Assembly: GCA_905178155.1 (NCBI GenBank)
Contig: CAJINV010000002.1
Location: forward strand, 2,312,998 to 2,376,997
Direction of reading: 5' to 3'
DNA: 64,000 nt
DNA from: Amoebophrya sp. A120
Lineage: Eukaryota; Protista; Dinoflagellata
Part shown: positions 1,518-63,411 of the stretch, piece after piece
How positions within the stretch are numbered: position 1 is the stretch's first letter
Layout: every line of letters starts with the position of its first letter
The notes under the pieces: generated by a model
The model's database searches: none
What the model was told of the DNA's origin: nothing
The model's input: the letters and a program-made list of their open reading frames with translations, nothing else
Made by a program: the position numbers and the translations under genes

Positions 1518-3922
1518 TTACTTCTTCTTCGTCTGATTCTTCACTTTCTCAATCGCGGCCGCGACCGTCGCTTCATCGCCCAGAAACTGCATGGAGACCA
1601 CCGGTTTCAAATCCGCGTCCAACTCGTACACGAACGGGATTCCGGTGGGGAGTATGAACTGCAAATATGTTGTCTGGGTCTGGAAACTTGTGTTGCTGAT
1701 GCTCGCATCCTAGGGCATGTTCCTGCACGGCATAACAGCATCAGAAGTTTTGCAAGGCTTGTCGTAGATTCTTTCATTCGTAAAACGCATGACGTTTCAC
1801 AGCATGACAGAGAAAGAAAAACTGCCCGCCAAGGGCATTCATTCGTTCGTTCGTTGTGGATCGGCTCTGCCGACCGGGTAACCCAACGCCTTGCATACAA
1901 GTGACCGACTTAGGCGAACCCCGTTGCGGGACATACAAATTGGCCGCACGGAAGGGCCCTAAGCGCTACATACATAGTTCACCCTAAGCGCCTACCACTT
2001 CGGTCTGGGACCTCGTCTACCTGATCCTGGGGGTCCACAGCGCACTAGCCCTTTGCTAGCATAAACAGTTTGGGTGCTACAGAGTGATCTAGCTCTCTCC
2101 TTTTAACAGTAAGGCCATCATAAATGTGCGCTAAAACGGGCTCGGGGCGCTCCGTACGGAAGGGAGCCTTACAGATCCCATTGTCCTTCTTACTTACTCG
2201 ATTCATGCATTACAGATTCCATTGTCCTTCAAATTTCGCATCACAAATCCAGAGGACCAAAACATATTTGCAATGCATAAGGAGATTCAATTCCATGATT
2301 TCCTCATTCGACATCTTGTCCAGGTGGCACCCATATCCTGTGCAAAAGTATCGTACTCGTATAAATGCGAATCTTGCATTACGAATCTTGTTCCCAAGGC
2401 AAATCTGCATTACAAATTTCATTTCTCATGCTGAGGAAATTTGTCATGCGATTTATACTAGTACGATACTTTTGCAGTCCATAAGACAATCCCGCGGAGA
2501 CTGTTTCCGTGGGCGGCGACCAGGATGGTTTTACCTTTAAAAAAATTGTAAAGGAAAGTTGGTTTTGGCACCATCCTAGACAGCAATATTCATGTCGACT
2601 CCGCAAGACAAACTCATCTTCACAACGAGATAGAAACCGGTTTGAGTTGTGTATGCATGTTACAAAAACCATTTTCACTATACCTTCCTTCAAGGCCGGC
2701 ACGATCGTGTTTTCCCAGAACGGCATGGTGCGCTTGATCGTCAATTCTAAAGACTCACACTTCGGAAACTCTTCCTCCTTCAGGTCCGCATACCGGGGGT
2801 CCTGCCGAATGGCCTCGAAGTACTCGTGTCCTTCCTCCATCGGCGGCGGTGGGGTGTCGAAGGACCGACGCCAGATCTGCACCTGGTCGGCTCCGTACTT
2901 TTCGACTGTCGCGGCCTTGTCGAGACCTGATAGATAAGTAGCTCTTAACAATTTGTCATGCGATCATGTGGGAATCATCGAGAAGACCATCTGTCATGCA
3001 AGACTCGCATGTCACAAACAAAACAAGCAGAGAAATAGATGACCCATTGACAACATACTTATTTGTATACCGGTCAGCCCGCCATAGTGCCGCTCGTTCA
3101 ACCGCCAGGTCTTTTCAATCGGCGGGGTTTGTCCCGCTTCGGAAAGAATAATGTCTATCCTGAGTAAAAACGTCCCCACCCCAAAGTCAAGTTGCGAACT
3201 CTGCAGCACAAATCCAGCAGTTTTGGAAGCCATGCATGACAAGTTCGTCTTTGTAGTGTAGTGCAGGTTAGCCAGGACAGTCGCATGACAAGCCCATCTC
3301 CTCATATTGTTTACAGCACTACAAATGCCAAAACACGACCGGAAATGCCTCTCATGTAGATGCGCATTGCAAATGTTCCTGTCGTTGCAAATCTGCATGA
3401 CAACTCTGGGGTGGGGACGTTTTTGCTCAGGATAATGTCCAGGGTTTTGTTTGCGCGGAGCAGGACGGAACTGTATGGATCGCAAATATGTCTGGGTCTG
3501 GCAGGGTGCCAACTTGTGATGCTGCCTTTGAATTCTACGCAGAATTTGTGTTGCATGAACAGCAAAAGAGGTCAAGTTTTTGCTAAGCGGAGACGGCATT
3601 TCTCATGCAGTATGGGCATCAGAAAGCCCTCAAAAGATCTGTGGTGCTAGGGCATGCATCACAGACGCCATGGCCTATGCAAAGTGAGCATGGCAAACAC
3701 CTGCATTCATGCAGACCCAGACATAAAAGTATTTGCATTCCATAAACTGTACGCCTGGTCGAATTTCAAGCCGGATTCCTTGATCGCAATCCCGCCCTTC
3801 TTCGCTTCCTCGAGCCCCGCTTCGGACAAATCCGCGTCGAACCAGCCGCAGAAGAGATTTTTCAAGTTCCATTCCGATTCCCCGTGGCGGACAAAAACGA
3901 TTTTGTACTTGGACTCCGGCAT
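1518..3922 (-). CDS. gpmA: 2,3-bisphosphoglycerate-dependent phosphoglycerate mutase, 7 exons
   Basis: Exons give [61 protein letters not shown] and [14 protein letters not shown]. Four introners plus two GT-AG introns (2535-2683, 2927-3070). The junction across 2334-2483 is not resolved exactly. Confidence 0.95.
1653..2279. mobile_element. Introner family A with nested ~380-bp insert
   Basis: TATGAACTGCAAATATG...CATATTTGCAATGCATA ends; flanks GGGAG/AGGAG; removal restores ELNLPTG. Confidence 0.85.
2334..2483. mobile_element. Introner family B
   Basis: TATCCTGTGCAAAAGTATCGTACT...AGTACGATACTTTTGCAGTCCATA inverted ends; TSD not recognisable. Confidence 0.8.
3156..3434. mobile_element. Introner family C (279 bp)
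   Basis: TATCCTGAGTAAAAACGTCCCCACCCC...GGGGTGGGGACGTTTTTGCTCAGGATA; TSD ATGTC; removal restores LDIILSE. Confidence 0.92.
3474..3744. mobile_element. Introner family A
   Basis: TGTCTGGGTCTG/CAGACCCAGACA inverted repeat; TSD AACTG; removal restores AYSSVLL. Confidence 0.9.
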
Positions 3923-4698
3923 TTTGTTTTTGGGTGGAAGTTTTTGTGGACGAAGTAAAGTTCGTGGCGTTCGACAAAGAAACTGAAACGTCGAGCAGGA
4001 GAAGGGCCTTCTTGTAAAGTATCCAATTGTGATGTCGTTGAAGAAAAGGTTGTTGATGCTCGGTCGTACTAGTTCTCAAAAAATCTCAAAGTCAAACTAC
4101 TCTACTGGTGATCTATAATAAACAGTTGAACTCTGAATATATGTATCGTTGCTGGTACTAGCGATAGTAAAAGTGCAGTTGAACTGAAAATAACAGGCTC
4201 CGGTGACCACCGAAATCGCGTAGTAGCAAACCGTTGCTTTGATCGTGATCGCGTCAATCTCATGAGATCTTTGGTGCTGATCGTGATTTTTTCAGTCGGA
4301 ATACCACGTAGTCTCGTATGGTTTGAACACAGCGGCAGATGAGTTCGTTTCGCCGACAAAAGCCGACCGATAGGCGACGTGACATGATTGAGATAAAACG
4401 TCTCAGCCTCTTGTCTCCGTTTGTTAATATACTGGGGTGCTAATAATTCATGGGGTTTCATTCGTTCTGGTAAATAAGATTGAAAAGCTGTTGTGGTTCG
4501 TGGTTATGTCGCTGGTGATGAAGAATACTTCTGCTTTTTGATGGGATCATCATGACGGGTACTTACATTCACCTTCAAAAAGTTGTTGCTCATGTGTTCA
4601 TCGTGGCTCAAGAAGTACACCGCTAGGTGGAGTCTGAGTGCTGCTATAATGACGAGCGTGCAGCTGGGAAAAGAAGAAAACTACTCACCAATTCACTT

Positions 4699-7236
4699 TC
4701 ACATCGCCACTTCCGCCTGTCCCATCTTGTGCCCACCCCCGGTCGCATAAGCGTCTAACTCCTCTTCCGTCAAAAACTGCGCTACTAACTGTTATCAAAT
4801 GTAAAAGTGTCTGGGTCCGGAAGAAAAAGAATGCAACTTGTGATGCTGTATTTGGATTCCAAAAAAATCTGTATTGCATGAGTACCAAAAGGAACGTAAT
4901 TTTTGCTACGCGGAGAGGGAATTTGTCATGCGGAATAGGCATCAAGAAGCTCTCAAAAAATCTGTGATGCTAGGGCATGCATCACAGACATCAGGGCTCA
5001 TGCAAAACGTGCATGACAAGTGTCAGAATCTCCCAGACCCAGACATTTTTGCAATCCATAACTGTCCCGGGTCGACGATGCCCAGGTCTGGTTTCAAATT
5101 TTTCGTGAACTCCGCGAAGGACGGTATCCGAAGGAAAGTTGATACCGCACACAAGCAAACGCTAACCATGCAACACAGGATTAATAAATGCTACCTCAGA
5201 CAGCAATACAAATCTCACTTTGCTTTGGGTATGTCATCAAAATTTGCCATCTGCGACGTGTGCGGCAATAAATCTGTATTGCATATCCGGGTCTAGTATC
5301 GAGCTCTTCTTCGTCGGGCCGTTTCCCTTTGAATCGGGCGAGCAGTACTGCGGCCATTTTTTCTCCATCTCTATCCCACGAAAAAACTGCTTCACTGTGA
5401 TGATTCTGTACGTTTTGCATCACAAGTTTGCTCTACATCACGGAGGAAGTTTGCCATGCGAGCTTCCTATGGGAAAGCTCGCCTACAAATGCATTATCTT
5501 GCATGTGTAGCAACACAAACACGCTTGCGATACATTTTCTGCATCACAAGTTCATTAGTGAAACAGTTTCCTCTTGCGATAATTTCCTCACTGACTTCAA
5601 TTTTCAAATCCTTCAACTCCGTCTTGATCAAATGGTCGTACCGCTGCTATGAATTGCAAAAGTATCGCACCTCTCGTAGCATTGTATGCAATACAAATTA
5701 GCTCAGCATGACAAATCCAAATGGAACTTGTCATGCGGATTCAGCTTCAGAGAGAGAGATCTGTAATGCATAAACGCAAGTACTACGAGTACGATACTTT
5801 TGCACAGGATAGCTGCAACCGGAAGTTGATTTCGATCTGGTCCACGCACTGCGGGGTTTGACCTAAATCCAGAAATCGCATCGACGCCGAGTTCACGAGT
5901 GTTTCTAACGCTTCTTCTAGCGAATTCTGCCCCGTAGCGGAAACAGGGTACAACGATCCGTCCCCGTCTTGCTGCAATAGCCCGGAATTTTCCAAGTACG
6001 CGTATAACCGCTGGTCGTCCGTTTCATCGCTGTCCGGGTCGTTCGGGTTTTTGTTCGCGTTTGATGTCCCATCGGTTGAAATAGAAGACCCGAGGTTGTG
6101 GTTCGGACTGTAATTCGGGTTCGGCGGGTAGCCGGCAAGCGCGGGAGGTTGCTGGTTTTGATTCGCATTCGCTGCTGCAGTATTCATTCCTTGTTGTGAA
6201 GGTTTCAAAGCGCTGAGTTGCTCTGGACTGGCTGGCGGCGGTTGATCCGGATTTGAATTTTGTTGATCTGTGGATGCCTGCTGGTCATTATTCTGCTGTG
6301 TTCTCACCACCGGCGGGCCGGAACTTGTCACCCCCGCGCCCTGGGTCACTGCGTTGGCGATACCAGATGCTCCTTGTTGCGCAGCAGCAGTATTTGATGT
6401 TCCGGGATTACCTGGACCTGTCCCCACTCCCCCTACGCTGTCGGAGTGGACTAATTTGCTGCCGTCGGAGCTTGGTACCAGTTCCAGAAACTCCGCGACA
6501 GCCAGCGTGCGGCAGTCGGTATCAAATGCAAATATGTCTGGGTCTGGAAACTTGTGATGCTGGTTGCGAAAGACGAGGACGCCTCAATTGACTGGCAAGC
6601 ATGACAAGTTTCGGAGGTGCTACAGTCTTGCCTTTTCTGCATGACAAAGCGACCTTCTGCACGACAGAAAAGTGGTGCCTTTGGGTAATGTGCATGACAG
6701 ACTTGAGAGTCATGTCCGACAAGCATGACAAACCTTGGATCTTTCCAGACCCAGACGTGTTTGCAGTTCATAATCGGGCTCGAGGATCAATACCCCGTTG
6801 AGGTAATGCTGTAGCTGCATCTGCCGCTGGTTGATAAACGCCTGGTCGTTGTTGCCGAACAGTCTTTTGCCGGGAAAATGGGGAAGTTGCACCGGGTACT
6901 TCTGCTTCAGCGTCTCGTTTAGCTCATGGAAGTGGCTATACCTGGAGGAAAATTGAAGATATATGAACTTGCAGTCGGCGTCCGCGTCGGGCTTCTTTTA
7001 TGCATGACAGACGGCTGCTCTGCTTTCTCTTTGAGCTGTATACATGGCGAAGTGTGATGCAAAAAGGCCAATAGTACTTACCTTTTCCCAATGTCCCACG
7101 ACTGTCCGTCCGGTGACATGACCCGCAAATGGTAAATCGTGTGCCCGGAAACGTTTGTGTTCTGGTAAATCATTGCCGTGTACGGGATCAAGGGGCTCTC
7201 CGGATCCGGAGAAAGATGCGCAGGATGGTCCGACAT
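4699..7236 (-). CDS. PX (phox homology) domain protein, multi-exon
   Basis: Spliced translation MSDHPAHL...GHTIYHLRVMSPDGQSWDIGKR|YSHFHELNETLKQKYPVQLPHFPGKRLFGNNDQAFINQRQMQLQHYLNGVL...EFL is typical PX (RYS-F, P-FP-K, R...L..YL). GT-AG intron about 6942-7081. Exon structure at 5070-5290 is uncertain. Confidence 0.8.
4793..5060. mobile_element. Introner family A
   Basis: Family-A TIR; TSD ACTGT. Confidence 0.9.
5372..5581. mobile_element. Introner family D
   Basis: TATCCCACGAAAAAACTGCTTCACT...AGTGAAACAGTTTCCTCTTGCGATA; flanks ATCTC/ATTTC. Confidence 0.8.
5648..5811. mobile_element. Introner family B
   Basis: Family-B TIR; TSD GCTGC. Confidence 0.9.
6520..6772. mobile_element. Introner family A
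   Basis: Family-A TIR; flanks GTCGG/ATCGG; interrupts the end of the PX domain. Confidence 0.88.
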
Positions 7237-7759
7237 GGTTCGCCAGGGCGTCAATATAGTCGTGCTCGAAACTAAAAGACTTTCTACTTCTTTGGCAACA
7301 CAAGAGGCGTTTTCAATGCCGGAAGTGCTTTATGTTCAACATTGTAGTTCACAAGGAGGTTAGTGGTGCGCCTCTTCTTGCGCCAAAAAATAATTCGCAC
7401 GTTCATATATAGATCTTATAAATATCATGTAGTTCTTGTTCATAAGAGACGGCTTGATGGCACTGTCATCAGCAAATAATGACCTGACGTTTTACTTGAT
7501 GTAATCAAGTACACATCATGGAATCAATTCATGTAGGATCAATAGGAATCTCGGTCACAAAATACTGACTCATTTGGAAAGACGATATGGAGAGACGAAA
7601 CAAGAAGACGACGAAATGCAAGCCACGAGAGGGCCGGCGACACCCACGCAGCAGAACACATCGGCGTAGCAAAGAGTGCCGGCAATGCGCCCATCGTGTC
7701 CATGGGCCGCTGCCTTCTCGGCCGGCGATGTCAAACAATCGAATTCATGTCCGACCCGC

Positions 7760-9704: not shown

Positions 9705-12326
9705 TCACCAAGTATGATCTTCAAACTGTGGCACAGTTGGAAATGAAATTGGCACTTTTTTCGTAGCGACGCCATCACCGCCCGAAACCCGGCTCAACAA
9801 CACCCCGGCATCTTCAACAGCTCCATTATTTCCGCCATTCCTCCGTGCAGATCCCTTGAAACGCGGCGTAGTCATGGCTGTTTCCCGCAAAAACGTCTCA
9901 AACGGAACCGGCGGTCGGGGTGTAGGAACTACAACTTGCTCCACATCACGTCGGGAGGTTCTGCCCGACAGCACAGCATCCACATCCCGATTGCTCGCGA
10001 AGCTCGCATCGGGGGACACGCAGCTCCGCACGTACTGTTTTGTCAGCGGAGGAACTACAAGCAGGTCTGTGTCTACTTTGGCGGCGTGACTGGTAGATGA
10101 GAATCCAGCTGCAGAACCAGACTTACCAACTGGACGCTTCCGTGCATACATGCGGTCCATGTTGAGCGGAGGGACGGAAAGGAATTGATGCTGTTGATGA
10201 AAGTGCTTGTTTGTCGTGACAAAACTCCCGTCGTTTTGCAGTTTTTGTTCCGCGTCAGTTGTAGTAGTTCCACTTCTTCTGGTGCCCAAGTTTGCAGTCT
10301 TCGATGCAGGAGATCTGGACCACCCTGTTGATGATCTTCGGAAGTCGCAAGAAAGGTCACTCGACGCACTACCCCCAACGGGCGTCGAGCACACGCTGGC
10401 GGTTAAAACCTGATCTAGTTGTTCTTCATCTTCCAGAGCATCGACATCGTCCTTTGCTTGACACAAATGATCCGCTTGCAGCTCCACGTCCTCCGCCCGT
10501 TCTATCTCCTCCTCCACCCCTTTGAAGCTCCGCACGCACGACAAATCGCCCTGGCTGGGGCATATCAAGTGTAAAAATGTCTGGGTCTGGAGGGTTCTGA
10601 GACTTGTCATGCACATTTTGCATGAGTCATGATGTCTGTGATGCATGCCATGGCAACACAGATTCTTTGTGGGCTTCTTCATGCCTAGTCCGCATGACAA
10701 ATGCCCTCTCCCCGAAGCAAAAAATAGACTCATTGTGCTGCTCATGCAATACAGATTTCTTTGGAATCCAAATGCAGCATCACAAGTTGCATTTTTTTTC
10801 TTCCAGACGCAGACCTAGACATTTTTACATTTGGTAGGGCACCGGAACAAGCAAGTGGTGGAAATTTCGTCCTGCGACAGATGCGCGTCCAGCTCTTCGA
10901 GGAGCACGGAGGCTTTTTCAATTTGCTCGTCCAAAATTTCGTGCAAATTTTTCTTCTCGCGGTGGTCTTGCTTCGTGTCGGACGCGGGGGTGTTGTTTGC
11001 AAGAAAAAAAGTTCCTGTGTGGTGGTTTATTCCGTTTCTGGCACTGGCAACCGTCGACGGCGTTGAAGACAGAGGATGAAGAGCAGGCAATTTTGAAGGT
11101 TTAGAGACCATTTTTCGGTGTAGTTGCTGCTCCCGCACTTCATCTACCTGCACGCAACACAAAATTTGGGTCGTGGTGTAAACTTTCTTGTTGGCGCTGG
11201 TTTCCTGTTCACCGACAGTGGTCTTTTCTTCTACCAGCCTTTCAGCTTGTCGAGTTTCACCTCCACCTCCTCCCCTCCCAGTGCAACACAACACGCCACG
11301 GGCGCCTCTGGCTTGCGAAAATTTCTTCAAAATCATCTTCCGACCGTAGGAGACCGGGGCTTTCGAAGATTTGCTCGTCCCGACGAGAGGAACAAACCTC
11401 TTCCCAAAAAAGTCGTGCCATGATTTGGGCAGGAGTTTTTGCTGCTTGGAGGTAGTTGGCGTCGGAGGGGAAGTAGCGCGTGAAGATGCTAAGGCGAAGT
11501 CTTTGTCGACGTTTTTCATCATCTTCCCTTGATCTTCAACAACTTGCGGAGGTTCCGTTGTAGTCGTGGTCCTCTCCAGCCTTTCCACCTCCTCCACTGG
11601 GACAAGCCGTGTGAACGGTAAACGAAGGCGCGGTGATGTTCTTGTGCAACAAGAACGACTTTTGTCAACCTCATTTGCTGCAGCGTCCTGCTTCCGACAC
11701 AGCGACACCGAAAAACAACACTGTTGCGCGCCATGACAGTTTTCTTCGTTTGTTGTCCATCTGGCTCCCTCAGTTTCACCATCATCAGCCCAAACTCCTA
11801 TACCACCCTTTCTGTGCGCCACAAGAAACAGCTCGATCGCCGTGTGTGGCTGCTGTGCTGTGAAAATTCTCAAATTGTACAGAACGTCGTGCAATATATC
11901 ATGGTGTTCGCCCACGACCAGGCCCGGTGAAAAATCTAGCGCCGGTTTCTCAACAACCTCGACCCGCTGAATTTCGGAAGAATTGTGCTCAACTTCGAGT
12001 TTCCATGTTTTCAACGCGTTGTACGATTCTTCCACGGCGGAATTATGCGGGCGTGACACTAAGTCGGAGGTGAAGCGCGGGCTTCTTGGGTCGACGTCAA
12101 ATTCCAGCTTGAGCAGGAGAAGCGCGTCCGCCTCGCTCAGGGAATTCTTTTGCTGTGGTGAGCACGGCGGTCTTCTTGGGGAAGTTGTGGAGGTCCTCGG
12201 GCCACCCGGAGCTCCAGCAGTGGCGTGATCATTGGGCGTCTTCTGCCCTAGCGAGGCTTTATCTTTGTTCGATCCATCTTGCTGAAAAACCACGGTCCAG
12301 CAAGTTCGTTGCGAGCGTGGCAACAT
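9705..12326 (-). CDS. Hypothetical protein, 2 exons
   Basis: Two long ORFs join in frame (LFRCP|SQGDL) when the introner at 10563-10836 plus one TSD is removed; start codon uncertain. Confidence 0.6.
10563..10836. mobile_element. Introner family A
   Basis: Family-A TIR; TSD GGGCA. Confidence 0.9.
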
Positions 12327-33716: not shown

Positions 33717-33888
33717 CGCTAAGACCTGGCACAAAACGTCCATGCACTTCCTAATCGTCTGCTCCTTCGTCAAAGTCGTTTCGTGCGGGTTTGTACTGGA
33801 CTCGGCGTTCTTCACGACCTTCTCCAAAGCGTTCATGCCCTCCTGATCCTTTGGTCCGGTGGCCAGCGCCTTCCACCCAAAGTAGTGC

Positions 33889-49100: not shown

Positions 49101-52100
49101 CAGCTCGCACGCGGCTTCTTCACATCCCAGGCCGGCGCAACCATGCTCCCGCTCATGAAATCCAGCCCTGCCGCTGTCAACGCCGCGTCATCCTCCATGT
49201 CCGTGAGCTCGTCTGCGCAATCCGGGGACTCCTCGGGCAATTTTGTGCCCAACGGCGCTTCCAACTTTGCTTCCTCGTACATGTTATGCAGTGCAAATAT
49301 GTCTGGGTCTGCCGGGTTGCAACTTGTCATGCTGACTCTGGACTGTGAAAAAATCTGTGTTGCATTGTTGCCAAAACTTGTCCACTTTTGACCAATTTGC
49401 GAGGAAGTTTCTCATGGGGGCTAGGCATGAGAAAGATCTCACAGAATCTGTCATGCTATGCGCTGCACGCCAGACCTCATGGGTCATGGAAAACCTGCAT
49501 GACAAGTTCCCCAATCTTCCAGACCAAGACATATTTGCATGGGATACATGTAGTGGCAAACGCGATACCGCAGACAATCCGACGCGTACCCCACCACCCC
49601 ACCGTTGTGCTCCGCACACCCGGGTATGCATTGTAAATAGGTCATCTGGGTCTGAAAGAATGCGAACCTGTGATGCGCATTTCACAACTACGCACTCAAA
49701 TTTTTAATGCATAGGCAGCAAAAGATGCCCATTTCCTACCACTAAAATGGGGCGGGATTTGTCATGCGGATTAAGTAGGCAATGCGAAAGATTCTCGAAA
49801 TCTGTGATGCTAGGGCTTCCATGACAGACCTTCTGCGTCATGCAAAAACAGCATGACTTCCAGACCCAGACATATTTGCATTGGATACCGGGTGCCGTGC
49901 CACAAGTACCCATGCAGTCGTACGTTCTGGCCAACTTCGCATCTTCAGAATGATCGGGCGAGTCCTTATCCAGTGCAAAAGCACCGTGCTCGTAGTAATT
50001 GCAGTCATGCAACACAGATCCACCCTTTCGTTCCTACGCTAAACCAGCATGACAGATTCCATTTGTTGTAAATGCTGACGCAAAAATTGTATTGCAATTA
50101 CTACTATTTACGCTGCTTTTGCAATCCATAGTCCTCGCCGCCGGACAAAACCAGTTGTGCTTCTCCCCAGCACTCGCCCGCGTACATCAAAATTTCGTAG
50201 CACTTGCTCTCGCACTTCGTGAATTCCGTCCGCTCGCACTTTCCGTCGGATTCATCGTAAAAAGAATTCGCCTCAAACCCCTCCTGACTCGTCGGCATCC
50301 CGAGCTGCGCCCCGTCAAACTGTACAATGTACTCCACACCTTCGTGGTAATCCCGGTGCGGGTCAATGTAGCCATTCATCGCGCTGCAAACGTTATTCCC
50401 CGCGAGAAGTTTCCTATGTAGCGCGTTGTGCTCGTAAAAACCGCAGGGTTTTATCCGGGTTAGGTCGCAGTTGTCCGACTTCCCCTCTTCAATATTACTG
50501 ATGGAACAGGGCGGCTTTCTTCTCAAACACGTGCCCGCCGGATCCCGTTTGCCGTCGTCATCCTTGCCGTCCGCATGCAGTTCCCCGATACTACGAAGCT
50601 CGTCGTACTTTTGCTTCACCATATCCGCGCTCGGCTCGGTACGATTCACACTGCGTGGCGTGGGAACTACGGACTTCTCCTCTGATGTGCCAGCACCGGC
50701 TGATGTGTTGTTACCCCCAGCTCCTTGTTCCTCGTCGGAAGCTCCTGCTAGTTCAGTGCCGTTGCCAGCACCGGAGAGGACATCAGCATCTTCTGTGCCA
50801 TTGGCACTCCCGTCTGTACCGTTTGTGGCGTTGTTCCCGCCATCAGGTGTGGCAGCCGCGTCTCCTTCTTCAACACCATCTGCGGCACCAGCGGCGGTGT
50901 CGGTGCCTGCTTCTGCGTCGGTGCCCCCTTCCGCATCGGTGCCTCCTTCCGTATCGGCGCCTCCTTCCGCATCGGTGCCTCCTTCCGCGTCGGCGCCTCC
51001 TGCTGCGTCGGCGACTGCTTCTTCGCCGTCGGCGCCTGCTTCCGCCTCGGCGCCTGCTTCCGCCCCGGCGCCTGCTTCCGCCTCGGCGCCTGCTTCCGCC
51101 TCGGCGCCTGCTTCTGCGTCGGTGCCTGCTTCTGCGTCGGTGCCTGCTTCCCCCTCGGCGCCTGCTTCTGCGTTGGTGCCTGCTTCCGCATCGGCGCCTC
51201 CTTCCGCATCGGCGCCTGCTTCTGCGTCGGTGCCTGCTGCGTCTTCTACTTCTTCCGTCGCTTTTTCAACGTCTTTTCCTACCTCAAACGCCAGCTCCTC
51301 GCTATTCTTTATCTTTTCCCCAACTTGAAATCCTAACTTCTCCGTCTTCTCCTCGCCACTTGACACTGCAAAATTCGCTTTGCCGACAACCGGTTGGATT
51401 TTGATGTGACTTTTTCTGACGTCCGGCACTATTTTCACGGTCGCCCCCGGATCGTTCATTTGGTTCTTCGGGTAGATTTGAAACTCCCGTCGGTCGGTCG
51501 GTGCGTTCTTCGGCCGGGAGACCCATCCAGATGATGAATCCGTATGCTTTTTTAAGTTCGGGTCGTGAACCTTCACTTTTGAACTTTTCCTATTCGGCTT
51601 TACTCTAATCCCGTTGTTCTTCTGATCCGGAGAGATGTTGAAGATTTTATTCTCCTCCGCAGCGCGGATCTTCACCTTGCTGTTTCTTTCCCTCGGAGCG
51701 ACGGTGAATTCGAAATTTTGTTGTTGTTTTGGCCTGTCCGAGTCTGGTTCCGGGTCTGGTTCGGCTTCATCTTTCCGACGGGCGGCCATGATTTGCACTG
51801 GGATGTTGTCGTCGTCGTCGTCCGCGAGAAAAGAGGAGGCGGAGGACTCGGTTGTTGTTTTACTCCTATGTTCCCGAAGATGAGAACTCGTAGTTCTTCG
51901 TGTGCTGGTGGCCAATCGTCGCGCAGCTGCGGCGGTGCTGTCCAACCGCTCTGCAGTAGTCAACTTTGGATGATCTTCAAGTTCAACGTAGGCGCTCAGG
52001 AAGAAATAGAAGTAGGAAAACGTCGTGCAAACGTGGCGGACAATGTTCTTCGTTTGTGAGGATCGTAGCCGTAGCAGTCGAGCACGACGGAGGAGTGATG

Positions 52101-54847: not shown

Positions 54848-57800
54848 CTACAGCCCCGTCTCCACCTGAAAAGTGAGCACCTCCGTCTTGTTTTCCCCCA
54901 TGTAAAACGAGAATTTCTGCGCCATGTCCTTCGGGTTTCTTGCTAAGGAAAACGGTTTCAAAGCCGGTCGCTTCGGGTCGAAGTTCTTGATGTAGTACCA
55001 TATGAACTGCAAAAGTATCGCACTAGTATAAACCAGCCATGCTCCGGCTGCCGCCGGAGCGCAAGGCTGTTGGGCCGGGGCAAGACTGTTTACCGATCGG
55101 ACCACAACCCCGCGGGCCTATGCACAACGAAACATATTGCGCCGCGCCAGCCCGCAGGACCACTTGCGCGCTTCCCGCGCCTGTGGGCGCTCTGCGCAGG
55201 GAGCAGCTGCAAAGAACACCGGGGGCGAACAGAAGCCGCCCGGCGGGAGAGGGTAGCGCGAGAGGGTGGCGCGAGAGGGTGCGCGAGAGGGTGGCGCGAG
55301 AGGGTGGCGCGAGAGGGTGCGCGAGAGGGTGGCGCGAGAGGGTGGCGCGAGAGGGTGCGCGAGAGGGTGGCGCGGCAAGGCGCCGAACAAAACAGCTCCG
55401 CGAATGGCCTGCAGTGCCAAATATGGGTAGTGCCATGCGGATTCGCGCCCGCTTCTTTGTGTTTTACCCTCTCGCAGACCTCTCGCAGAGCCTCTCTTTG
55501 ACCTCTTTTGGGGGTCCCCGCTAATAATCCGGCTATACTCGCAGGTAGAGGTCGACAGAGGTGGCCGAGAGGTGGCCAAGAGGGTCCGCGAGAGGTCGCC
55601 CCTTATTCGCGCCACCTCTCGCCACCTCTGTCGACCTCTCGCGCCCCCTCTTTTTGACCTCTCTGCGCCCTCTGTGCCACTTAGGCGGCGCCTAAGGGTG
55701 GGCCCTTACTGCGGGCCTTATTCGCGCACCCTCTCGCGGACCCTCTCGAACGGGGTTCCGCGCCACCTCTCCACCTCTGTCGACCTCATTTCTACCTCTG
55801 TCGACCTCTTTTTTACCTCTCGGCCACCTCTCTGGGACCCTCTGTCTACCTCTTTTTTCGCATTAATATAATGTATAAGTAATCGCATGACAAATTAGCT
55901 CAGCATGACAAATGGGATTTGTCATGCTGTTTTACCTTGGGATGAAGATTTGTAATGCATGACTGCGATTACTACGAGTGCGATACTTTTGCACAGGATA
56001 TACCAGTTAAAAGCGCAAAACTCAGGCTGCGGGTCCACCTGGTCGCACCGTTTTTTCCTTTTGCACTCGTACGCCAGCGACTTGTCCCGGTTGATGAAGA
56101 CCCCCCGGCAAAATTTGTTTTGCGTAGTGTCCCACGGGTTGATAAGTTTCGGGGCATCCGCGTCAGACAGTGCTAGTTCTCTGGTTTGATGTTTCTTGGA
56201 AAGCAGTGTGGCGGGCGCAGCTTCTTCTGTAATTCCTCCATCTTCCGTGGAGCTTCCAGTCGTCGTTTCTGTTTTGCTCGAAGCAGAGCCTCCTCCCCTC
56301 CCCCGTAAAAAACACTTTTGCAATGTCCCGATTACATCTTGACTCTGCCGGATCGCCAAACCCCCCGAATCGCCACTATCATCCTCACAGAAATATTCGT
56401 TTTGCACGGCTTCTAAATCCGCGAACAAATCGTCGATCAACTGCCCCTTCCAGGATTCCACCTTGGCGATGAACTTGTCTTGCTGTTTCGGCGTAGCTAA
56501 ATGTTCTTTCTCCACAATCTCCTCCCCCTCTTTTTCCACTTCCTTCTCCGCCGGACCGCGGTTCAATAGCTCCTGGTACGCGAGTTCCAACTTCTCCTGG
56601 TAAGACAAAGTCGAAGTGGTGGTCGTGGTAGTTGTCGTGGTTGTTGTGTTCATCTGTAGTTCCGCGTCCAGCATTTCCGACGGGTCTTTGATCTCCCTGG
56701 GCGTGGTATCGCAAGAAAAAACTGCTTCACTGTAAACTTGTAAAAATGCAGAAAATGCATCGCAGCAGTGTTTGTGTTGCTACACATGTTGCAAGACAAG
56801 TGATTTTTAGCCGTGTTTTCCCTTGGCATCCTCGCATGGCAAGTTTTCTTCGTCACGTGTAACGAACTTGTGATGCAAAACTTGCAAAATCATCACAGTG
56901 AAACACTGTTTTCGTACGATACGTGGCCAAGGACTCCGTTCCTTCCTCCGTTGTTTTCCGTACCAAAAACCACTTCTGCTTGCAGTCCGGCTGCTGCGCC
57001 CCGTATTCTAATTCGTACATCGCGCACTTCTTTATCCCTGGGGAGACAACCTCATCCAGTCCGTTTCCGCACTTGTAGCCGAGGGTCTTTTCTGGATTGA
57101 CGAAAACCCCGCTGCAACCACTCTCGTCCAATAGACATTCGTGCATGAGAGCGCGAATGTTGGTAAAGAGGCTGGGGGCTGTACTGCCGAAGACAAAAGG
57201 CTTTTCGCAGTAGTATTCGCCCGTACTCGCGCCGGTGATGTTCAGTAAAGTTTCCACGTTGGCGAAGGAGGGAAGCTTGGAGGTTAAGTTGTTTGCCGTC
57301 ACTGTGACGTTGATTTGCTGCTGGGGAGAAATACTGGGAGAACTGTCAGGATCGGAGTCAGCTTCTGATGCTTCATCTGGAGACGCTTTATTTTCTGCCG
57401 GTTCTGTTCCAGCTTCCGCCGGTTCCTCTCCCGCCGCAGCGGGCGGGTCTTGCTTGCTCTTCTGGAGTTGCAGAAGTTTCGTGTTTGCTAATGTTCTACT
57501 TGATTTTCGTGTAGTTCTCTTTTTCCTTTCTAACTTTATCGCCTCTTCCCTATCTGCCTGCAGCAAGCTCAGCAATTCCTTTCTCCTTTTTTCCAAAGTG
57601 GCCACTTGGAACCGCAATGTCTCGGTTTTGTTTTGTTGGGCTGCTCCTCCTTGGGCGTCTGTAGGTGACTGTTGATCTGTTTTAATATTTCCTGAAGTTT
57701 CGTCATTTTTCGAAGCTGCAATCGCGGCTTTCTCCGCCTTTTCCCTCCTCTCCGCAGCGGCCTTTCTTGCGCTCTTCACAATGTCGTTCACCGCATCACG

Positions 57801-60800
57801 AAAACTGGCCCAGGCTTGCGACTTTTGCAACTCCTTTTCACTTTTTTTATTTGTCGCGAACCCCTTCGCGTCCGGGTCCGAGCCAGAGCCACTATCACCG
57901 TCCCCCATAGAACTCATCTGCTCCAACTGCCCCGCTAAATCCGGGTTATCGAGCATGATCCCCGGGAGAAGAGTATTCCAAAACTGGTACTGCGCGTTGT
58001 GCGGCTCGAGCTTCGTGCCCGTTTCGGTGTCCAGGAGCACTTGCAGGTTGTTTTCGTCGTAGTCCATGGTTAGAATGGTCGCTTGTTTACTATCTTTGAA
58101 AGTTATAGGAGGACCACCTGGGTCGTCGGACACCATCGTGAGGATTTTCGGGACTAAGAATTCGAAACCGCGGAATTGTTCGTTGAGATCCAGAGCCGTA
58201 GAGGTAGAAATTTTATCTCCGATATTTTGTCCTGGCTGTATCCTCTGCACCGCCGCCCGGAGAATGACCGTCAAGATGCTGCGCAACCGCGAGACGTGCA
58301 ACACGATCTCGGTCGGGGGTTTATTTCCAGTAGTTGGTTCCGCGGTACTTCTTTGCCGATCAGTTTTTCTCGCGGCGAGTAAAGCAGTTGTTATCGGGTC
58401 GTCGGTACTCGAAGCCGATACGTCGCTTATCTCATCTCCTGCATCCTGCTCACCGGATATCGCTGTAGTTTCTGAATCTGAACCACTAGCACTCCTCGTC
58501 GCATTACTGACCGCCGCGGTTGAAGATGACGATGAGCTTTCGTTTCTTCCCATAAACCCGTGCTTTTTCAGATAGTCCTCCATTTTCGTGTAAAAAGGTT
58601 GGTACAGCTCCATCATTTTACTCCCAATGTTCCGCTCTCCCGCGACAATCATTTGGTGCCGGTGCCGGTACACATGCACGTTGATCACCCGGTGATCTGG
58701 GATCGCCGTCGCTTTCACGGCGGAAAGAACCGAGTTTCGCAGGTGCTCGTTGACGCACGTGTTGAACTGTTCCAGCTGAATCGCTTGCGTGAAAAGGGCT
58801 AGTTGCTGCGTAGAAGAAGATTCTGCTTTACTACTACCAGGAGCAGGCGGGAGATCACGACTGTTTTCTTCTACATCACCCCCTTCCAGGCTGTCCACAT
58901 CATGATCCTCTTCTTCATCAAACCCCGTTATCCGGTAGCAAATGTCCACATCCAAATCCCGCCCAAAGCCGTCGTTCCCCAGCCCCACCCGCGCGAACGC
59001 CGACTCGATGGCCTGCGCGGTGAGTTGTGTGGCCGGAGCGGAGTTCGCGGTGGCACTCCCGTCGATTTTTCGGCTGTACCCGAATAAGGGGTTCGGGTAC
59101 ATAGAATCCGGCGTGGGAATCAAGCCTGTCAAAGCGTTGCTGCCGCTGAACGTACCGCTTCCGGGAGCGGTTAGTGTACTGGGGAACACCTGACTCGGGT
59201 ACCAGTCGGTACCAACCGAAGTTAGTCGCGCTGGCAACCCTTGCACACCGGCGATACTGGGGGGTAAATCCGCGCGAATGGAATCATATGCACTGCAAAA
59301 GTATCGTACTAGTAGTAAGCGCAATACAAATTAACTCAGCATGACAAATGGAATTTGTCATGCTGTTTTGCCTTGTGATGGAGATTTGTAGTGCATGACT
59401 GCGATTACTACGAGTACGATACTTTTGCACAGGATAAGTCCCCGTCGGAGCTGCTGTACGCTTCTTCGGAAAAGGGGCCCGGGAGTTCGTCGAGATCGGC
59501 TTTGGAGGTGGAAACTGGGGAGAGAAGACCGTCGGTGAAATCGAAATCGGATTTTGAAGCGGTGGAGGATGAGCTAGAGCTTCTGCCTAAGCCTATCTCA
59601 CTCCCAAATTGCGTTTGCATCTGCATCTGCAGAAATTGCAAGTACTCCGCGGGTGGTGGCTGGCCTGCAGCTGTCCCTGTTGCACCCACATCACTAGTAT
59701 CTCCAGATGCGCCGGCCGACACCGACGCGTCATTTGGTGCTCCTGCACTGCCATCACCATCGCCACTGTTTGTTTTCTCCAGCGTCTCGCTTGCCACCAC
59801 CGGCTCTTTGTCACCGTTGTCATTTTTGGACATCTCCACCCCACAAACCGCCTGACCAATGCGGATTCTAGGACCGCCGGGGTTGTTGAGGGTGCTACTA
59901 CTTTTCGTGCTGCCTCTTGATGTGCTCCCACGAAACTCCTGTTGCCTCGCATCAAACATCTGCATCAAAGCTGCTGGCGCGCCAGCAGCTGGATCTTGTT
60001 GATTTGTTTCCGGGAACCCAAAACTCGTTTTCAAAACCGGTTTTGCCGGCTCCAGCTGCAACTATTGAGAGGAAAAATCCTCCCTCCCCATATCGAAAGT
60101 GTATGTTTCCGAAAATTTGTCTTGCTGATTTGAGACCACAAATCACGTCTGTCTTGCAAGAAGACAACTCTACAGGCTCTGCCGCATTATGCAGGCGGTT
60201 TGTGATGTTGTTGGGCCTACAGCATAGACGTTTCTCTTGCTAAGCGCCTAGGCCGAAACCTCTCTACTCAGGCTTCGCAGGAGCTTGTAGTCCTCTACTG
60301 CAAGACAAGCCTGATTTGTATACGCAAATCCAGCATCAGAAACTTCCGTTTGATATGGGGAGGGGGGATTTTTCCTTGTGATAGCAACCCTAACTTCTTC
60401 GACGGAGGTTTTTTACTTGCTGATCCGTTTTCGTTGTCCCCATTCCCCTTCTCCTGTTGCTCTTGGTAGTGCTGTGACAGAAACTTCTGCATCTCTTCCT
60501 GCTTTATTGCCCGATCGAAGTTCTTCTCCATAATGGATCGGTGATTCACGTATGCATTGCAAATATGTCAGTCTGGGTCTGGAAGAGAGCGCTTGTTTGG
60601 CATGCATGTTTTGCATGACCCATGATGTCTGTGATGCATGCCCTAGCATCACAGATGTTTTGAGGGCTTCCTCATCCCTAATCCGCATGACAAATGCCCT
60701 CGTCTACTCCGCGTAGCAAGAACAGGACTTCGCTTGCTGCTCATGCAATACAGTTGTTCTTTGGAATCGAAACGCAGCATCACAAGTTGTATCCTTCCAG

Positions 60801-63318
60801 ACCCAGACATATTTGCAATGCATATCACGTGCGTGCTGTTGATTTGGTTTTCGTTTTGGGTAAAATCAATCATCAGATCCCCCGTGATTATGACCTGCAA
60901 AAGTATCGTATTCGTATAAATGCATTACAAATTTCCTCAGCATGAGAAATAAAATTTGTAATGCGGATCCGGATTTGCCTTGAGAACAAGATTTGTAATG
61001 CATGATTGCAATACGAGTGCGATACTTTTGCACAGGATAGTGATCTCGTCCGCACGATGTACGTCGTAGGAGCAGAAATCCACGATCGCACGGGGCTGTC
61101 GATTTGTAGCACTGCGCTGCATCGGTTCTCTCTGTACAAAAGCGTCCAACGCAAATTGCACCGCGAGAGAGATTATCAAATGTAAAAATGTCTGGGTCTG
61201 GAAAAGTGTAGACTTGTCATGCACATTTTCCATGACCCATGAGGTCTGGAATGCGGGACTTAGCATGACAGACTCTGCGGAGTCTCTGTCATGTCTATCC
61301 TGCATGAGAAACTCCCTTCCAACTTGGTCAAAAGTGTACAGCTTTTGGCACTCATGCAACAGAGATTTTTGCATGCTTCAGATTTACCATGACAAGTTGC
61401 AATCTTCCAGACATCCAGACATTTTTGCAATTCATAGAGATTTTTTCGCAGAAAATCCTCCTGTCGTTCGGTGCGTATCCTGATTAAAAACGTCCCCACA
61501 CCAGAGTCAAGATGGGGACTTTGCAACACAAACCTAGGAGTTTTGGGAATCACGCATGACAAGTTTCAGTCCGTAAGGTAGTGCAAGTTAGCAAGGAAAG
61601 CCGCATCACAAATCGATCTGCTGATCCTGTTTACAGCATTACAAGTTCCCAAACACGATTGAAAATGCCTGTCATGGGGTTGCGCATCACAACTATTCCT
61701 GTCATGGCAAATCTGCATGACAACTCTGGGGTGGGGACGTTTTTACTCAGGATAGTGCGTCAGCGAGGTTCTGGATTTTCAGGGATAAAGCCCCCGTGAG
61801 CCGGTTTTTCCCGTCGTTTTTTGTGCATTGGTTCAGTTTCCTCTCCAGCGTAATAGCGATTCGGTCAATCGCGGCCTTGCGTTGGTTTTCCAGTCGTTCT
61901 TGCTCGGGGGTCAGGTAGTTGGTGGGGGTGATATTGTCCTGGTCTGACCCTGCCGGCGTCGCGCTCGTGCTTGTGGTAGGTGGTGGAGGGAAAAATATTT
62001 TCAACGACCGGGTGTCGTGTGGTGTTAGTGAGTCTTGCACTGACTTTGTCAACGCGCTTCAGGAAATAAGTACTTCAGCATGATAAAGGCGAAACCCAAC
62101 TTCTCTTCTCCGCCGCACTGAATCTGCAAATTTTTGCAACACATGCAGGTGAAATATTAAACGTGCAACTAGTACTAACCCGCCTGTTGAACAAATTTTC
62201 CCATCCCATACAGGTGTCGTGAAATTCAACAGCAGTGCCTGCGCTGTCACCTGATCGGAGTTCACAGGCATTAACGGGAGCTGCACCGGATACTCCTTCG
62301 CTGTTGTTGACTTTTCTTCTCCTTGTGCACTGGTGTCACTTCCTCCCGCATCCTCTTTTTCACGTCCCAACATCTTCGTCCTCGTGGTCTCCTCTCGCAG
62401 ATTCCGCAGTGCTTCGGTGAAGGAAAGGAGCGCTTGCGGTTCTTTATTCGGGTTAATATTTGGTACCGATGGTCGTACTCTTGATGCAACCTGCGAAGCA
62501 GTAGAATCTGATGCACCTTTCATCGATGCAGTATGAATTTCAGAAGCTTTATCCCCCACGCCCGCACTTGCTGGTATCGTGGTTTTCGTCCTCTTCGCAG
62601 CCAATTTTGCGCCTGCCTTCGGATCTGACACAGCAGCGTCCGTTGGTTGTGGTGGTATTTCGTTGCAAACAAACTCCCCTACCGGTGACACGGCGGAAGA
62701 ATATGTGCTGTCTACCGACGTTTTTGAGCTGTTAGTAATCTTCTCTGCCGTTGCGTTAGTACTGTCGGTGTCGCCCGACGCGCTACCACCGGTACTGCTA
62801 CCCAAAACATCAGTATTCTGTGGTTTAAAGCTGCTACGGTCGAAAAACTGTTGTCTTTTTCTCACCGCGTTTTCCTCCAATTTTGCGTTTACCAGCGCCG
62901 GTTGCATATCAAATGTAAAAATGTCTGGGCCTGGAAACTTGTGATGCTGGGTGGCGTCTCATGATGAGGCCACAAGTGCTGGCTCAGCATGACAAGTTTC
63001 TGAGCTTCTAGGTGTTGCCTACTTATTCTGCATGACAAACTGCGTTTCTGCATCACAGAAAAATGGAGCTCCTGGGTAACGTGCATGACAGACTTAAGAG
63101 TCATGCCAGACAAGCATGACAAACATGCACTCTTCCAGACCCAGACATTTTTGCATTTGATATTGCAACTTCTCGAACAACTCCTCATCCTCAGCACTCG
63201 CGGCTCCGTCTTGCGAGGAGTAGCTGAAGTCCATCCTTTCCTCCAGCTCGCAAGCGCTGCAGACCGCCGCGCTCTTCTGCCAACAAACGTTCTTCGCCCG
63301 TTCCGGGCGCAGGCCGCA
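54848..63318 (-). CDS. Very large protein with two C-terminal Cys-rich (PAN/apple-like?) modules; 5' end not in window
   Basis: Chain of minus-strand exons separated by 9 introners and one apparent GT-AG intron (about 62057-62179); repeated module Y(Y/F)CE...C...C.GVF(V/I)N..K.L.Y.C. Confidence 0.65.
55001..56000. mobile_element. Introner family B with nested ~850-bp GC-rich/minisatellite insert
   Basis: Family-B TIRs at both ends; TSD TACCA; removal restores FNWYYIK. Confidence 0.88.
55248..55372. repeat. Minisatellite (G)GCGCGAGAGGGT, 12-13-bp unit, about 10 copies
   Basis: Directly visible. Confidence 0.9.
56707..56921. mobile_element. Introner family D
   Basis: TATCGCAAGAAAAAACTGCTTCACTGT...ACAGTGAAACACTGTTTTCGTACGATA; TSD CGTGG. 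Confidence 0.9.
59287..59436. mobile_element. Introner family B
   Basis: Family-B TIR; flanks AATCA/AGTCC (decayed TSD). Confidence 0.85.
60063..60383. mobile_element. Introner family F
   Basis: TATTGAGAGGAAAAATCCTCCCTCCCCATATC...GATATGGGGAGGGGGGATTTTTCCTTGTGATA; TSD GCAAC. Confidence 0.9.
60551..60824. mobile_element. Introner family A
   Basis: Family-A TIR; TSD TCACG. Confidence 0.9.
60889..61039. mobile_element. Introner family B
   Basis: Family-B TIR; TSD GTGAT. Confidence 0.9.
61174..61436. mobile_element. Introner family A
   Basis: Family-A TIR; TSD GAGAT. Confidence 0.9.
61476..61754. mobile_element. Introner family C (279 bp)
   Basis: Family-C TIR; TSD GTGCG. Confidence 0.92.
62907..63162. 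mobile_element. Introner family A
   Basis: Family-A TIR; TSD TTGCA. Confidence 0.92.
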
Positions 63319-63371
63319 TATGAAATGTAAAAATGTCTGGGTCTGGAAGATTGCAACTTGTCATGCTAAAT
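63319..63371. mobile_element. Left end of a family-A introner, interrupted by a poly(T)-bounded insert
   Basis: TATGAAATGTAAAAATGTCTGGGTCTGGAAGATTGCAACTTGTCATGCTAAAT followed by a T run; no right TIR in the window. Confidence 0.8.
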
Positions 63372-63411
63372 TTTTTTTTTTTTTGCTAGGCTTCTCGCGT
63401 GTCGATTTGAA

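What the first reader, a model, noticed from the sequence alone, without database searches (positions are those of the whole stretch)
1653..63371. About 40 TIR/5-bp-TSD elements act as non-GT-AG introns inside conserved genes (introner system)
Seen: about 40 short elements in at least 7 families sit inside coding sequence, including phosphoglycerate mutase (4), proteasome alpha-6 (6) and Tim10 (1). Almost all start TAT and end ATA, have 20-35-bp inverted ends and are flanked by a 5-bp direct repeat of varied sequence. Deleting the element plus one repeat copy restores conserved protein motifs exactly (AYS|SVL, CIP|NVK, NLP|TG). Most junctions cannot be read as GT...AG wherever the cut is placed within the TSD (e.g. 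sense-strand TSDs ATCTC and ATCAC contain no G). Known: TIR plus TSD is the signature of non-autonomous DNA transposons, and non-canonical inverted-repeat introners are reported in Amoebophrya with the excision mechanism unresolved. Inference: the cell removes these precisely by a route guided by structure or end motifs rather than U2-type splice dinucleotides, either at RNA level or by DNA-level excision.
Basis: partly seen in the sequence, partly recalled or inferred. Interest (0 to 1): 0.93.

Follow-up and report, generated by a model that had tools for sequence, protein, structure and literature searches.

The report
Transposon introns cut at fixed register
These are the already published hairpin-ended transposon introns of the marine parasite Amoebophrya; transcript assemblies show them removed cleanly without normal GT-AG ends, and every informative junction fits one cut position (one base before the left end, four after the right end), which likely points to how the still unknown splicing machinery reads them.

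Summary
Observation confirmed: 39 complete TA...TA elements with imperfect inverted ends and 5-bp target duplications (TSD); 0 of 38 tested read GT-AG at any cut. The system is already known. Window exons are 100% identical to deposited Amoebophrya sp. A120 proteins, and the TAT+7+AAA end motif with 5-bp repeats is that of the introner elements of Farhat et al. 2021. Removal is at RNA level: RNA contigs from one sample skip element+5 nt at 11 of 11 elements in 43000-59700, while DNA contigs keep them. Nine mismatched TSDs all fit one cut: TSD bases 1-4 come from the upstream copy and base 5 from the downstream copy. Two junctions pin this alone. The intron is N-TAT...ATA-NNNN, set by transcription direction, not element orientation. 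The papers call the border variable or unknown, though three rows of a 2025 supplementary table show the same offsets. Likely mechanism (inferred, about 0.55): a relaxed spliceosome reads NTA as a GTA-like donor and measures the acceptor from the stem. A non-spliceosomal cutter-ligase is the main rival. The scan earlier noted similar hairpin introns in two other dinoflagellate genomes.

The parts
1653..2279 (.). Element, 627 bp, with extra internal sequence, in PGAM; sense TSD differs at base 5
   Evidence: RNA piece starts at 1648, the downstream-copy base; P0083 needs k<=4
2334..2483 (.). Element, 150-bp family, in PGAM; TSD differs at sense bases 3 and 4
   Evidence: P0083 and 116 of 117 matched homologs need k>=3
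3156..3434 (.). Element, 279-bp family, in PGAM
3474..3744 (.). Element, 262-274-bp family, in PGAM
4793..5060 (.). Element, 262-274-bp family, in PX-domain gene
5125..5285 (.). Degenerate element, 161 bp, weak inverted ends (8 of 14 pairs); TSD differs at sense bases 4 and 5
   Evidence: needed to fit RNA contig coordinates; only k=4 reproduces P0200
5372..5581 (.). Element, 210-232-bp family, in PX gene; TSD differs at sense base 3 (synonymous, cut not tested)
5648..5811 (.). Element, 150-bp family (164 bp), in PX gene
6520..6772 (.). Element, 252-bp family, in PX gene; TSD differs at sense base 5
   Evidence: RNA pieces start at 6515, the downstream-copy base
10563..10836 (.). Element, 262-274-bp family, one end TAC instead of TAT
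   Evidence: RNA pieces end at 10557, joint itself not listed
22549..22693 (.). Element, 150-bp family
24966..25230 (.). Element in Tim10 gene
26425..26676 (.). Element, 252-bp family
33180..34266 (-). Partial duplicate of the proteasome gene 3' part; holds elements 33289-33496 and 33567-33716, two EMPTY sites (near 33780 and 33833) and two fragments (33889-34004, 34045-34266)
35481..35688 (.). Element, 208 bp, in proteasome alpha gene
35759..35911 (.). Element, 150-bp family, proteasome gene; TSD differs at sense base 2
   Evidence: L in 16 of 16 homologs needs k>=2
35980..36245 (.). Element, proteasome gene; absent from the duplicate (filled/empty pair)
36304..36607 (.). Element, 304 bp, proteasome gene; absent from the duplicate (filled/empty pair)
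36956..37234 (.). Element, 279-bp family, proteasome gene
37275..37540 (.). Element, 262-274-bp family, proteasome gene
39081..39229 (.). Element, 150-bp family
43077..43308 (.). Element, 232 bp
   Evidence: RNA skips 237
43459..43657 (.). Element, 199 bp; TSD differs at sense bases 3, 4, 5; pins the cut alone
   Evidence: RNA joint 43454 to 43659, skips 204, no slide (runs X5 and X6)
46439..46706 (.). Element; TSD differs at sense base 2
   Evidence: RNA skips 273, slide 3, k 2-5
46757..47008 (.). Element, 252-bp family
   Evidence: RNA skips 257
48666..48921 (.). Element, 256 bp, unrelated interior, TCA in place of AAA at both ends; TSD differs at sense base 1
   Evidence: RNA skips 261, slide 4, k 1-5
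49285..49546 (.). Element
   Evidence: RNA skips 267
49625..49887 (.). Element
   Evidence: RNA skips 268
49967..50130 (.). Element, 150-bp family (164 bp)
   Evidence: RNA skips 169
55001..56000 (.). 150-bp-family element carrying an insert of about 850 bp
   Evidence: RNA skips 1005
56707..56921 (.). Element, 210-232-bp family
   Evidence: RNA skips 220
59287..59436 (.). Element, 150-bp family; TSD differs at sense bases 1 and 4
   Evidence: RNA skips 155, slide 1, k 4-5
60063..61754 (.). Five elements in one long ORF: 60063-60383, 60551-60824, 60889-61039, 61174-61436, 61476-61754
   Evidence: no RNA laid here
62907..63162 (.). Element, 252-bp family
63319..63376 (.). Truncated element end running into T-rich low-complexity sequence
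1518..3922 (-). Host gene: phosphoglycerate mutase, 254 aa; 4 elements and 2 GT-AG introns (2927-3070, 2535-2683)
4408..7477 (-). Host gene: PX-domain protein, 438 aa; 5 elements and GT-AG intron 6942-7081
35427..37813 (-). Host gene: proteasome alpha subunit, 249 aa; 6 elements and an inferred GT-AG intron 36685-36818

Best explanation
These are the miniature TA...TA transposon introns of Amoebophrya A120: they sit in coding sequence with a 5-bp target duplication, are removed from the RNA as element plus 5 nt, and fit one cut register (N-TAT...ATA-NNNN), likely carried out by a relaxed spliceosome guided by the paired ends. Shown: insertion duplicates 5 bp; DNA keeps the element; mRNA lacks element+5; TSD bases 1-4 come from the upstream copy and base 5 from the downstream copy. 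Inferred: an integrase-like DDE transposase elsewhere in the genome inserts them. In the transcript, the two ends pair (two near-invariant blocks, positions 1-3 and 11-13) and bring the sites together. The element's first T and A then stand at intron positions +2 and +3, as in the organism's ordinary GTA donors, with +1 free. The acceptor is set by distance, 4 nt past the stem, with no AG. Because both ends carry the same motif, either insertion orientation splices, and the protein is unchanged.
For: RNA contigs skip element+5 at 11 of 11 elements in 43000-59700 (X5 and X6 all 11, X3 8, X4 none covered; one sample). Contig coordinates fit the same loss at 4 PGAM and 5 PX-gene elements together with GT-AG introns, and one contig ends in a poly(A)-like tail. 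Register: 9 of 12 mismatched TSDs could be tested and 9 of 9 fit k=4. Two allow only k=4: 43459 by RNA and 5125 by deposited protein P0200. Chance under independent uniform cuts is 0.0071 for eight, about 0.0012 with the ninth, about 0.007 if the first pin is used to choose k (my arithmetic). Same-family elements in opposite orientation need k>=3 (2334) and k>=4 (59287), so the register does not follow the element. The four ordinary donors examined all start GTA (three GTAT, one GTAA). Farhat 2021 finds nearly all spliceosomal proteins and U2, U4, U5, U6 in A120 but no U1 (passages), and T at +2 in 9 of 9 predominant A120 and 9 of 9 A25 non-canonical pairs (Table S4).
Against: No call tests the enzyme: no lariat, branch point or intermediate was seen. 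Spliceosomal second-step chemistry normally needs the +1G and the 3' AG (own knowledge); both are free here. The inverted ends show no RNA-strand bias (G-U 22 against A-C 29 over 37 elements), so selection for an RNA hairpin is not shown. Element 5125-5285 is spliced although its ends pair at 8 of 14 positions and do not close in the predicted fold. Table S4 is ambiguous: 8 of the 9 A120 pairs also have A at -2, the mirror placement, and Dataset S2 counts are as rich in ag/ac as in gt/at. All RNA evidence is contigs from one sample, which hide minor cut variants. The deposited proteins rest on RNA-guided gene models, so they are independent junctions but not independent data. All host genes lie on the minus strand, so transcription direction cannot be separated from chromosome strand here.
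Confidence: 0.55

Rival explanations
1. Same elements and same register, but a non-spliceosomal route removes them: a structure-reading endonuclease cuts 1 nt before and 4 nt after the stem and an RNA ligase joins the exons, in the manner of tRNA or IRE1-type splicing or the unknown Euglena machinery.
For: Both terminal dinucleotides are free (0 of 38 GT-AG). A fixed stagger around a helix is what such enzymes make (own knowledge). Two paired blocks about one helical turn apart are kept across unrelated families, including 48666 where both ends changed together. Euglena non-conventional introns also have paired ends and are released as circles (passages).
Against: The cut leaves T and A at +2 and +3, exactly as in the ordinary GTA donors. 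A weakly paired element still splices. There is no G-U over A-C bias in the ends. A GTAAA inside the 5' arm is rarer in the sense 5' end than in the mirror end (3 against 11 of 37, post hoc), as if cryptic donors matter.
Confidence: 0.33
2. The elements are spliced at RNA level but the cut slides freely inside the TSD, as the 2021 figure legend says, and the agreement on 4|5 here is chance or reflects only the majority product.
For: Only two junctions pin k=4 alone, and contigs show only the majority form. Published annotations give mixed border dinucleotides and mixed offsets across families.
Against: 9 of 9 tested junctions agree, chance about 0.001-0.007 (and arithmetic). Three Dataset S2 families with a detected 5-bp TSD (fam160, fam56, fam74) show the same 1 and 4 offsets. 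Mixed annotations are expected where perfect TSDs leave the aligner free.
Confidence: 0.09
3. The elements are cut out of the DNA before expression (programmed excision as in ciliates), so transcripts come from element-free copies.
For: TIR plus TSD is a DNA-transposon anatomy, and two empty sites exist in a partial duplicate. Contigs drop rare variants, and 1106 joints were not shown.
Against: DNA contigs of run X1 run unbroken across at least one end of all 10 elements in 1000-11200, and none of the 15 listed joints is an element+5 skip. The cut follows gene direction rather than element orientation, which a symmetric transposase would not give. Farhat 2021 validated such introns by RNA-seq against the genome (passages).
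Confidence: 0.03

Closest known systems
Introner elements (IEs) of Amoebophrya sp. A120 (Farhat et al. 2021, PMC7789003; abstract, sections 11, 12, 16, search passages, supplement part 3 and figure legends read)
   Same: Same organism by protein identity. Same IR start (TAT, seven variable bases, three or more A), direct repeats of 3-5 nt with a 5-bp example, non-canonical ends, RNA-seq support, many families.
   Different: Nothing in kind. The paper calls the splice site variable relative to the hairpin and the border unknown; here it resolves to one register. [quoted passage not shown]
A120 introner families of Gozashti et al. 2025 (PMC12130899; passages and 55 of 58 A120 rows of Dataset S2 read)
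   Same: TIR DNA families of matching sizes. fam38 is noted as Ginger with 5-bp TSD and TA/TA termini. fam160, fam56 and fam74 list the 5' splice point 1 before the element and the 3' point 4 after it.
   Different: Most other rows give other offsets and TSD lengths from automated calls, and the passages read state no general register or excision mechanism.
Euglenid non-conventional introns (Nomura et al. 2025, PMC12501133, passages; review PMC11282704, passages)
   Same: No GT-AG, paired ends that bring the sites together, a short 5' and a longer 3' unpaired tail, suspected MITE origin, unknown machinery.
   Different: Euglena signature is N3CDG...CHGN5-6|R. Here the stem starts at +2 with TAT and ends at -5, with a strict 5-bp TSD and no purine rule shown. 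Circular release is reported in Euglena and untested here.
TIR/TSD introners of Micromonas, Aureococcus, Symbiodinium, Florenciella (Gozashti et al. 2022, PMC9860276, passages)
   Same: Non-autonomous DNA transposons whose splice points fall inside the TSD so that the mRNA is restored.
   Different: Those carry or co-opt GY and AG dinucleotides; these need neither and splice from any target sequence.
IS3EU/GingerRoot and Ginger2 DNA transposons (Kojima and Bao 2023, PMC10045372, passages)
   Same: TA..TA termini (IS3EU, GingerRoot); 4-5-bp TSD (Ginger2).
   Different: IS3EU and GingerRoot usually make 6-bp TSDs; no transposase was found here, so the superfamily is not assigned.

Membership tests
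Amoebophrya A120 introner elements | IR starts TAT, seven variable bases, then three or more A | tested here: met
   TAT at 38 of 39 ends on each side; A at positions 11-13 in 36-39 of 39; motif
Amoebophrya A120 introner elements | Direct repeat of 3-5 nt at the borders | tested here: met
   5 bp at all 39 (27 perfect); two filled/empty pairs
Amoebophrya A120 introner elements | Removed from transcripts without GT-AG | tested here: met
   11 of 11 joints; 0 of 38 GT-AG
Amoebophrya A120 introner elements | Repeated, in families | tested here: met
   5 multi-copy groups among 35 clustered; element sequence draws far more DNA contigs than flanks (not a copy number)
Amoebophrya A120 introner elements | Occurs in that lineage | tested here: met
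   Two window exons 100% identical to deposited A120 proteins P0083 and P0200, reproduced in full in silico
MITE / non-autonomous TIR transposon | TIR, TSD made on insertion, short non-coding body | tested here: met
   37 of 39 are 145-321 bp; empty sites carry one 5-mer
MITE / non-autonomous TIR transposon | An autonomous partner with the same ends | not testable with these tools
   No whole genome held; no transposase family among 23 ORF pieces scanned
IS3EU/GingerRoot | TA..TA termini | tested here: met
IS3EU/GingerRoot | TSD usually 6 bp | tested here: not met
   5 bp; RNA skips element+5 and only +5 gives the full proteasome protein matching homologs
U2-type spliceosomal intron | GT/GC...AG ends | tested here: not met
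   0 of 38 at any cut
U2-type spliceosomal intron | Lariat intermediate, dependence on U2, U5, U6 | not testable with these tools
   Only contigs of this strain's RNA were available
Euglenid non-conventional intron | N3CDG...CHGN5-6|R signature | tested here: not met
   Ends are N-TAT and ATA-N4
Euglenid non-conventional intron | Ends pair into a stem | tested here: met
   Predicted only: terminal register closed in the fold of 36 of 39
Euglenid non-conventional intron | Released as a full-length circle | not testable with these tools
   Needs RNase R or inverse RT-PCR data

The most novel reading that the evidence does not exclude
Amoebophrya runs a second, non-spliceosomal mRNA splicing pathway that recognises a transposon's own terminal inverted repeats as an RNA stem, cuts 1 nt before and 4 nt after it, and ligates the exons. 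This would neutralise any insertion of any family with these ends at any sequence, and would converge on the Euglena route from an unrelated lineage.
Probability: 0.3. Interest if true: 0.9.

Novelty: already known. Interest (0 to 1): 0.45.

Why it matters
The system is published, but how these introns are excised is open. A fixed 1+4 register turns 'highly variable splice sites' into one rule. It would let tens of thousands of A120 intron borders be re-annotated, it predicts the exact ends of the excised RNA, and it gives a direct way to tell a relaxed spliceosome (lariat, T and A at +2 and +3 needed) from a cutter-ligase (linear or circular product, pairing needed). It also explains why the elements are harmless at any target and in either orientation.

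Tried and rejected
No whole genome was held, so no genome-wide count and no search for an autonomous partner. Run X4 covered none of the 11 joints: no evidence either way. Two further joints (46693 to 49285, 46822 to 46968) join element interiors and were set aside as repeat effects. Rfam found nothing in the window. Pfam found no transposase in 23 ORF pieces. The G-U versus A-C test for RNA-level hairpin selection was negative (22 against 29; 4 against 1 in the two invariant blocks, not significant). TSD bases show no AG or GT preference in 38 elements. A guess that 5230-5285 was a 56-bp mini-element was dropped: the real element is 5125-5285. The inserts in 1653-2279 and 55001-56000 have no second copy in the window. 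IS3EU membership was rejected on TSD length. Cuts at 5372, 33289 and 33567 could not be tested. Searches of earlier scan notes by place and by sequence returned nothing.
Full report
Observation. Scans for inverted ends with a flanking direct repeat and a self-BLAST give 38 complete elements (list). RNA contig arithmetic revealed a 39th, degenerate one at 5125-5285. Three fragments lie at 33889-34004, 34045-34266 and 63319-63376. A strict scan finds 36 end pairs in the window and 1 in all of 20 shuffles. All 39 start T-A or pair at positions 1-2; position 3 pairs in 38 of 39 and positions 11-13 in 39 of 39, while positions 4-7 pair in 18-27 of 39. The TSD is 5 bp, perfect in 27 of 39. A partial duplicate of the proteasome gene (33180-33888) lacks the elements at 35980 and 36304 and shows one copy of each 5-mer, so the duplication arises on insertion, or is lost on precise excision. 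Clustering of 35 elements gives 5 multi-copy groups and 6 singletons, with both orientations in every group. Deleting element+5 leaves an open minus-strand frame across each junction (with the start of 43459 corrected). GT-AG is impossible at all 6 cut positions in 38 of 38; GA-AG is possible in 1.

Host genes. Pfam gives phosphoglycerate mutase, a PX domain, Tim10 and proteasome alpha among 23 ORF pieces. In-silico splicing reproduces the deposited proteins P0083 (254 aa) and P0200 (438 aa) without a difference; both are named as Amoebophrya sp. A120 by their source. For the proteasome gene, removal of element+5 gives 249 aa with 188 identities to the 242-aa A25 protein P0004; other lengths give 96-143 aa, or 243 aa for +8, which drops a residue at each site.

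RNA or DNA. One search listed 11 runs, 8 holding the stretch. In one search, X1 behaves as DNA: long contigs cross genes and intergenic sequence and run unbroken across at least one end of all 10 elements in 1000-11200; none of the 15 joints shown is an element+5 skip, but 1106 joints were not shown and X1 may be the window's source. X3 and X4 behave as RNA: their contigs skip elements and GT-AG introns, and predicted record positions match the observed ones exactly for PGAM (526, 866, 1376) and the PX gene (565, 1472, 1849). In one search (X3-X6, one sample, 43000-59700) all 11 elements are skipped as element+5: 237, 204, 273, 257, 261, 267, 268, 169, 1005, 220 and 155 nt. X5 and X6 show all 11, X3 shows 8, X4 covers none. 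An X5 contig ends in a T run at 54436, a poly(A)-like tail for a minus-strand gene. The 1000-bp element with an 850-bp insert is removed as exactly as the short ones, so only the ends matter.

The register. Let k be the number of TSD bases taken from the upstream copy in the sense strand. Twelve TSDs have mismatches and nine could be tested. By RNA: 43459 allows only k=4 (joint 43454 to 43659, no slide), 59287 allows 4-5, 46439 allows 2-5, 48666 allows 1-5; 1653 and 6520 allow 0-4, read from piece starts at 1648 and 6515. By deposited protein: 5125 allows only k=4 (A390) and 2334 needs 3 or more (V195; V in 116 of 117 homologs matching the motif, of 120). By conservation: 35759 needs 2 or more (L in 16 of 16). 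The only shared value is k=4. Under independent uniform cuts the chance is 0.0071 for eight, about 0.0012 with 5125, about 0.007 if the first pin is spent on choosing k. The excised piece is N-TAT...ATA-NNNN. Elements 2334 and 59287 belong to one family in opposite orientations; a cut fixed to the element would give k of 1 or less at 2334, which is excluded. So the register follows the gene, though all genes here share one strand. Limits: one RNA sample, contigs only, and gene models that rest on RNA alignments.

Mechanism. The register places the element's invariant T and A at intron +2 and +3. The four ordinary donors examined start GTAT (three) or GTAA (one) (the fourth inferred from homolog alignment). 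Farhat et al. report most spliceosomal proteins and U2, U4, U5, U6 in A120, but no U1 (passages). I therefore rank first a relaxed spliceosome that takes NTA as donor and sets the acceptor 4 nt past the stem (inferred, about 0.55). Table S4 fits (T at +2 in 9 of 9 predominant pairs in each strain; A25 repeats start TTA), but 8 of 9 A120 pairs also fit the mirror placement, so it is weak support. Against a simple hairpin model: no G-U over A-C bias (22 against 29), and 5125-5285 splices with 8 of 14 pairs and no closure in the predicted fold. A post hoc hint for sequence reading: at position 10 all 8 C/T-discordant elements have C in the sense 5' end and T in the mirror end, in both orientations, and GTAAA occurs in 3 sense 5' ends against 11 mirror ends of 37; this is one of 20 positions examined. 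The main rival is a structure-reading endonuclease plus ligase (0.33), favoured by the freedom of both terminal dinucleotides. DNA excision is unlikely (0.03).

Comparison with print. Farhat et al. 2021 (PMC7789003; abstract, sections 11, 12, 16, passages, supplement part 3 and legends) describe A120 introners with this end motif, 3-5-nt repeats and RNA-seq support, and call the border variable or unknown. Gozashti et al. 2025 (PMC12130899; passages, 55 of 58 A120 rows of Dataset S2) note fam38 as Ginger with 5-bp TSD and TA/TA termini. Three rows (fam160, fam56, fam74) carry the same 1 and 4 offsets from an automated call; most rows differ. I found no statement of a general register in five searches of the library. 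Not seen, and able to bear on this: the figure images S19-S25 of Farhat, the SI Appendix and files 13-14 of Gozashti 2025, three Dataset S2 rows, and Roy et al. 2023 (seen only in reference lists). Euglena non-conventional introns (PMC12501133 and review PMC11282704, passages) work alike but have another signature. IS3EU/GingerRoot share TA..TA ends but usually make 6-bp TSDs (PMC10045372, passages). Other TSD introners co-opt GY and AG (PMC9860276, passages).

Verdict. The system is already known, in this very strain. The fixed register is a small but useful addition that makes the open excision question testable. Interest 0.45.

Noticed in passing
window 33180-34266: Partial, about 98% identical duplicate of the proteasome gene's 3' part with a different set of elements (two empty sites, one extra truncated element at 33889, and a third short copy of the 35759 site without element near 34000-34045). 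Insertions postdate the duplication, or elements were precisely lost.
   Followed up: partly
element position 10, e.g. 26425-26676, 46757-47008, 62907-63162: All 8 C/T-discordant elements have C at the sense 5' end and T at the mirror end, whatever the element orientation. This removes a cryptic GTAAA from the 5' arm or makes TTTAC in the 3' arm. Post hoc, one of 20 positions.
   Followed up: partly
window 55033-55880: GC-rich insert of about 850 bp with short tandem units and internal inverted repeats, nested in a 150-bp-family element; no second copy in the window, no Rfam hit; spliced out with its host.
   Followed up: partly
window 1700-2230: Unrelated interior of the 627-bp element; many DNA contigs and a 329-nt RNA contig (1935-2263) match it, so it is likely a repeat of its own.
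   Followed up: no
all elements: A short internal motif (GCA-W-B-AC-M, both strands) occurs 148 times in 9,749 element bases against 37 times in 53,497 other bases; possible transposase-binding subterminal repeats shared across families.
   Followed up: no
whole window: All identified genes lie on the minus strand, and every complete element falls in a reading frame or the gene duplicate; none was found in the GC-rich intergenic stretches.
   Followed up: no
P0087: A 628-aa protein from another assembly joins a PX domain and PGAM, the two neighbouring genes of this window; probably conserved synteny with a fused gene model.
   Followed up: no
window 63376-63600: T-rich low-complexity tract directly after a truncated element end; possible assembly break or rearrangement.
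   Followed up: no
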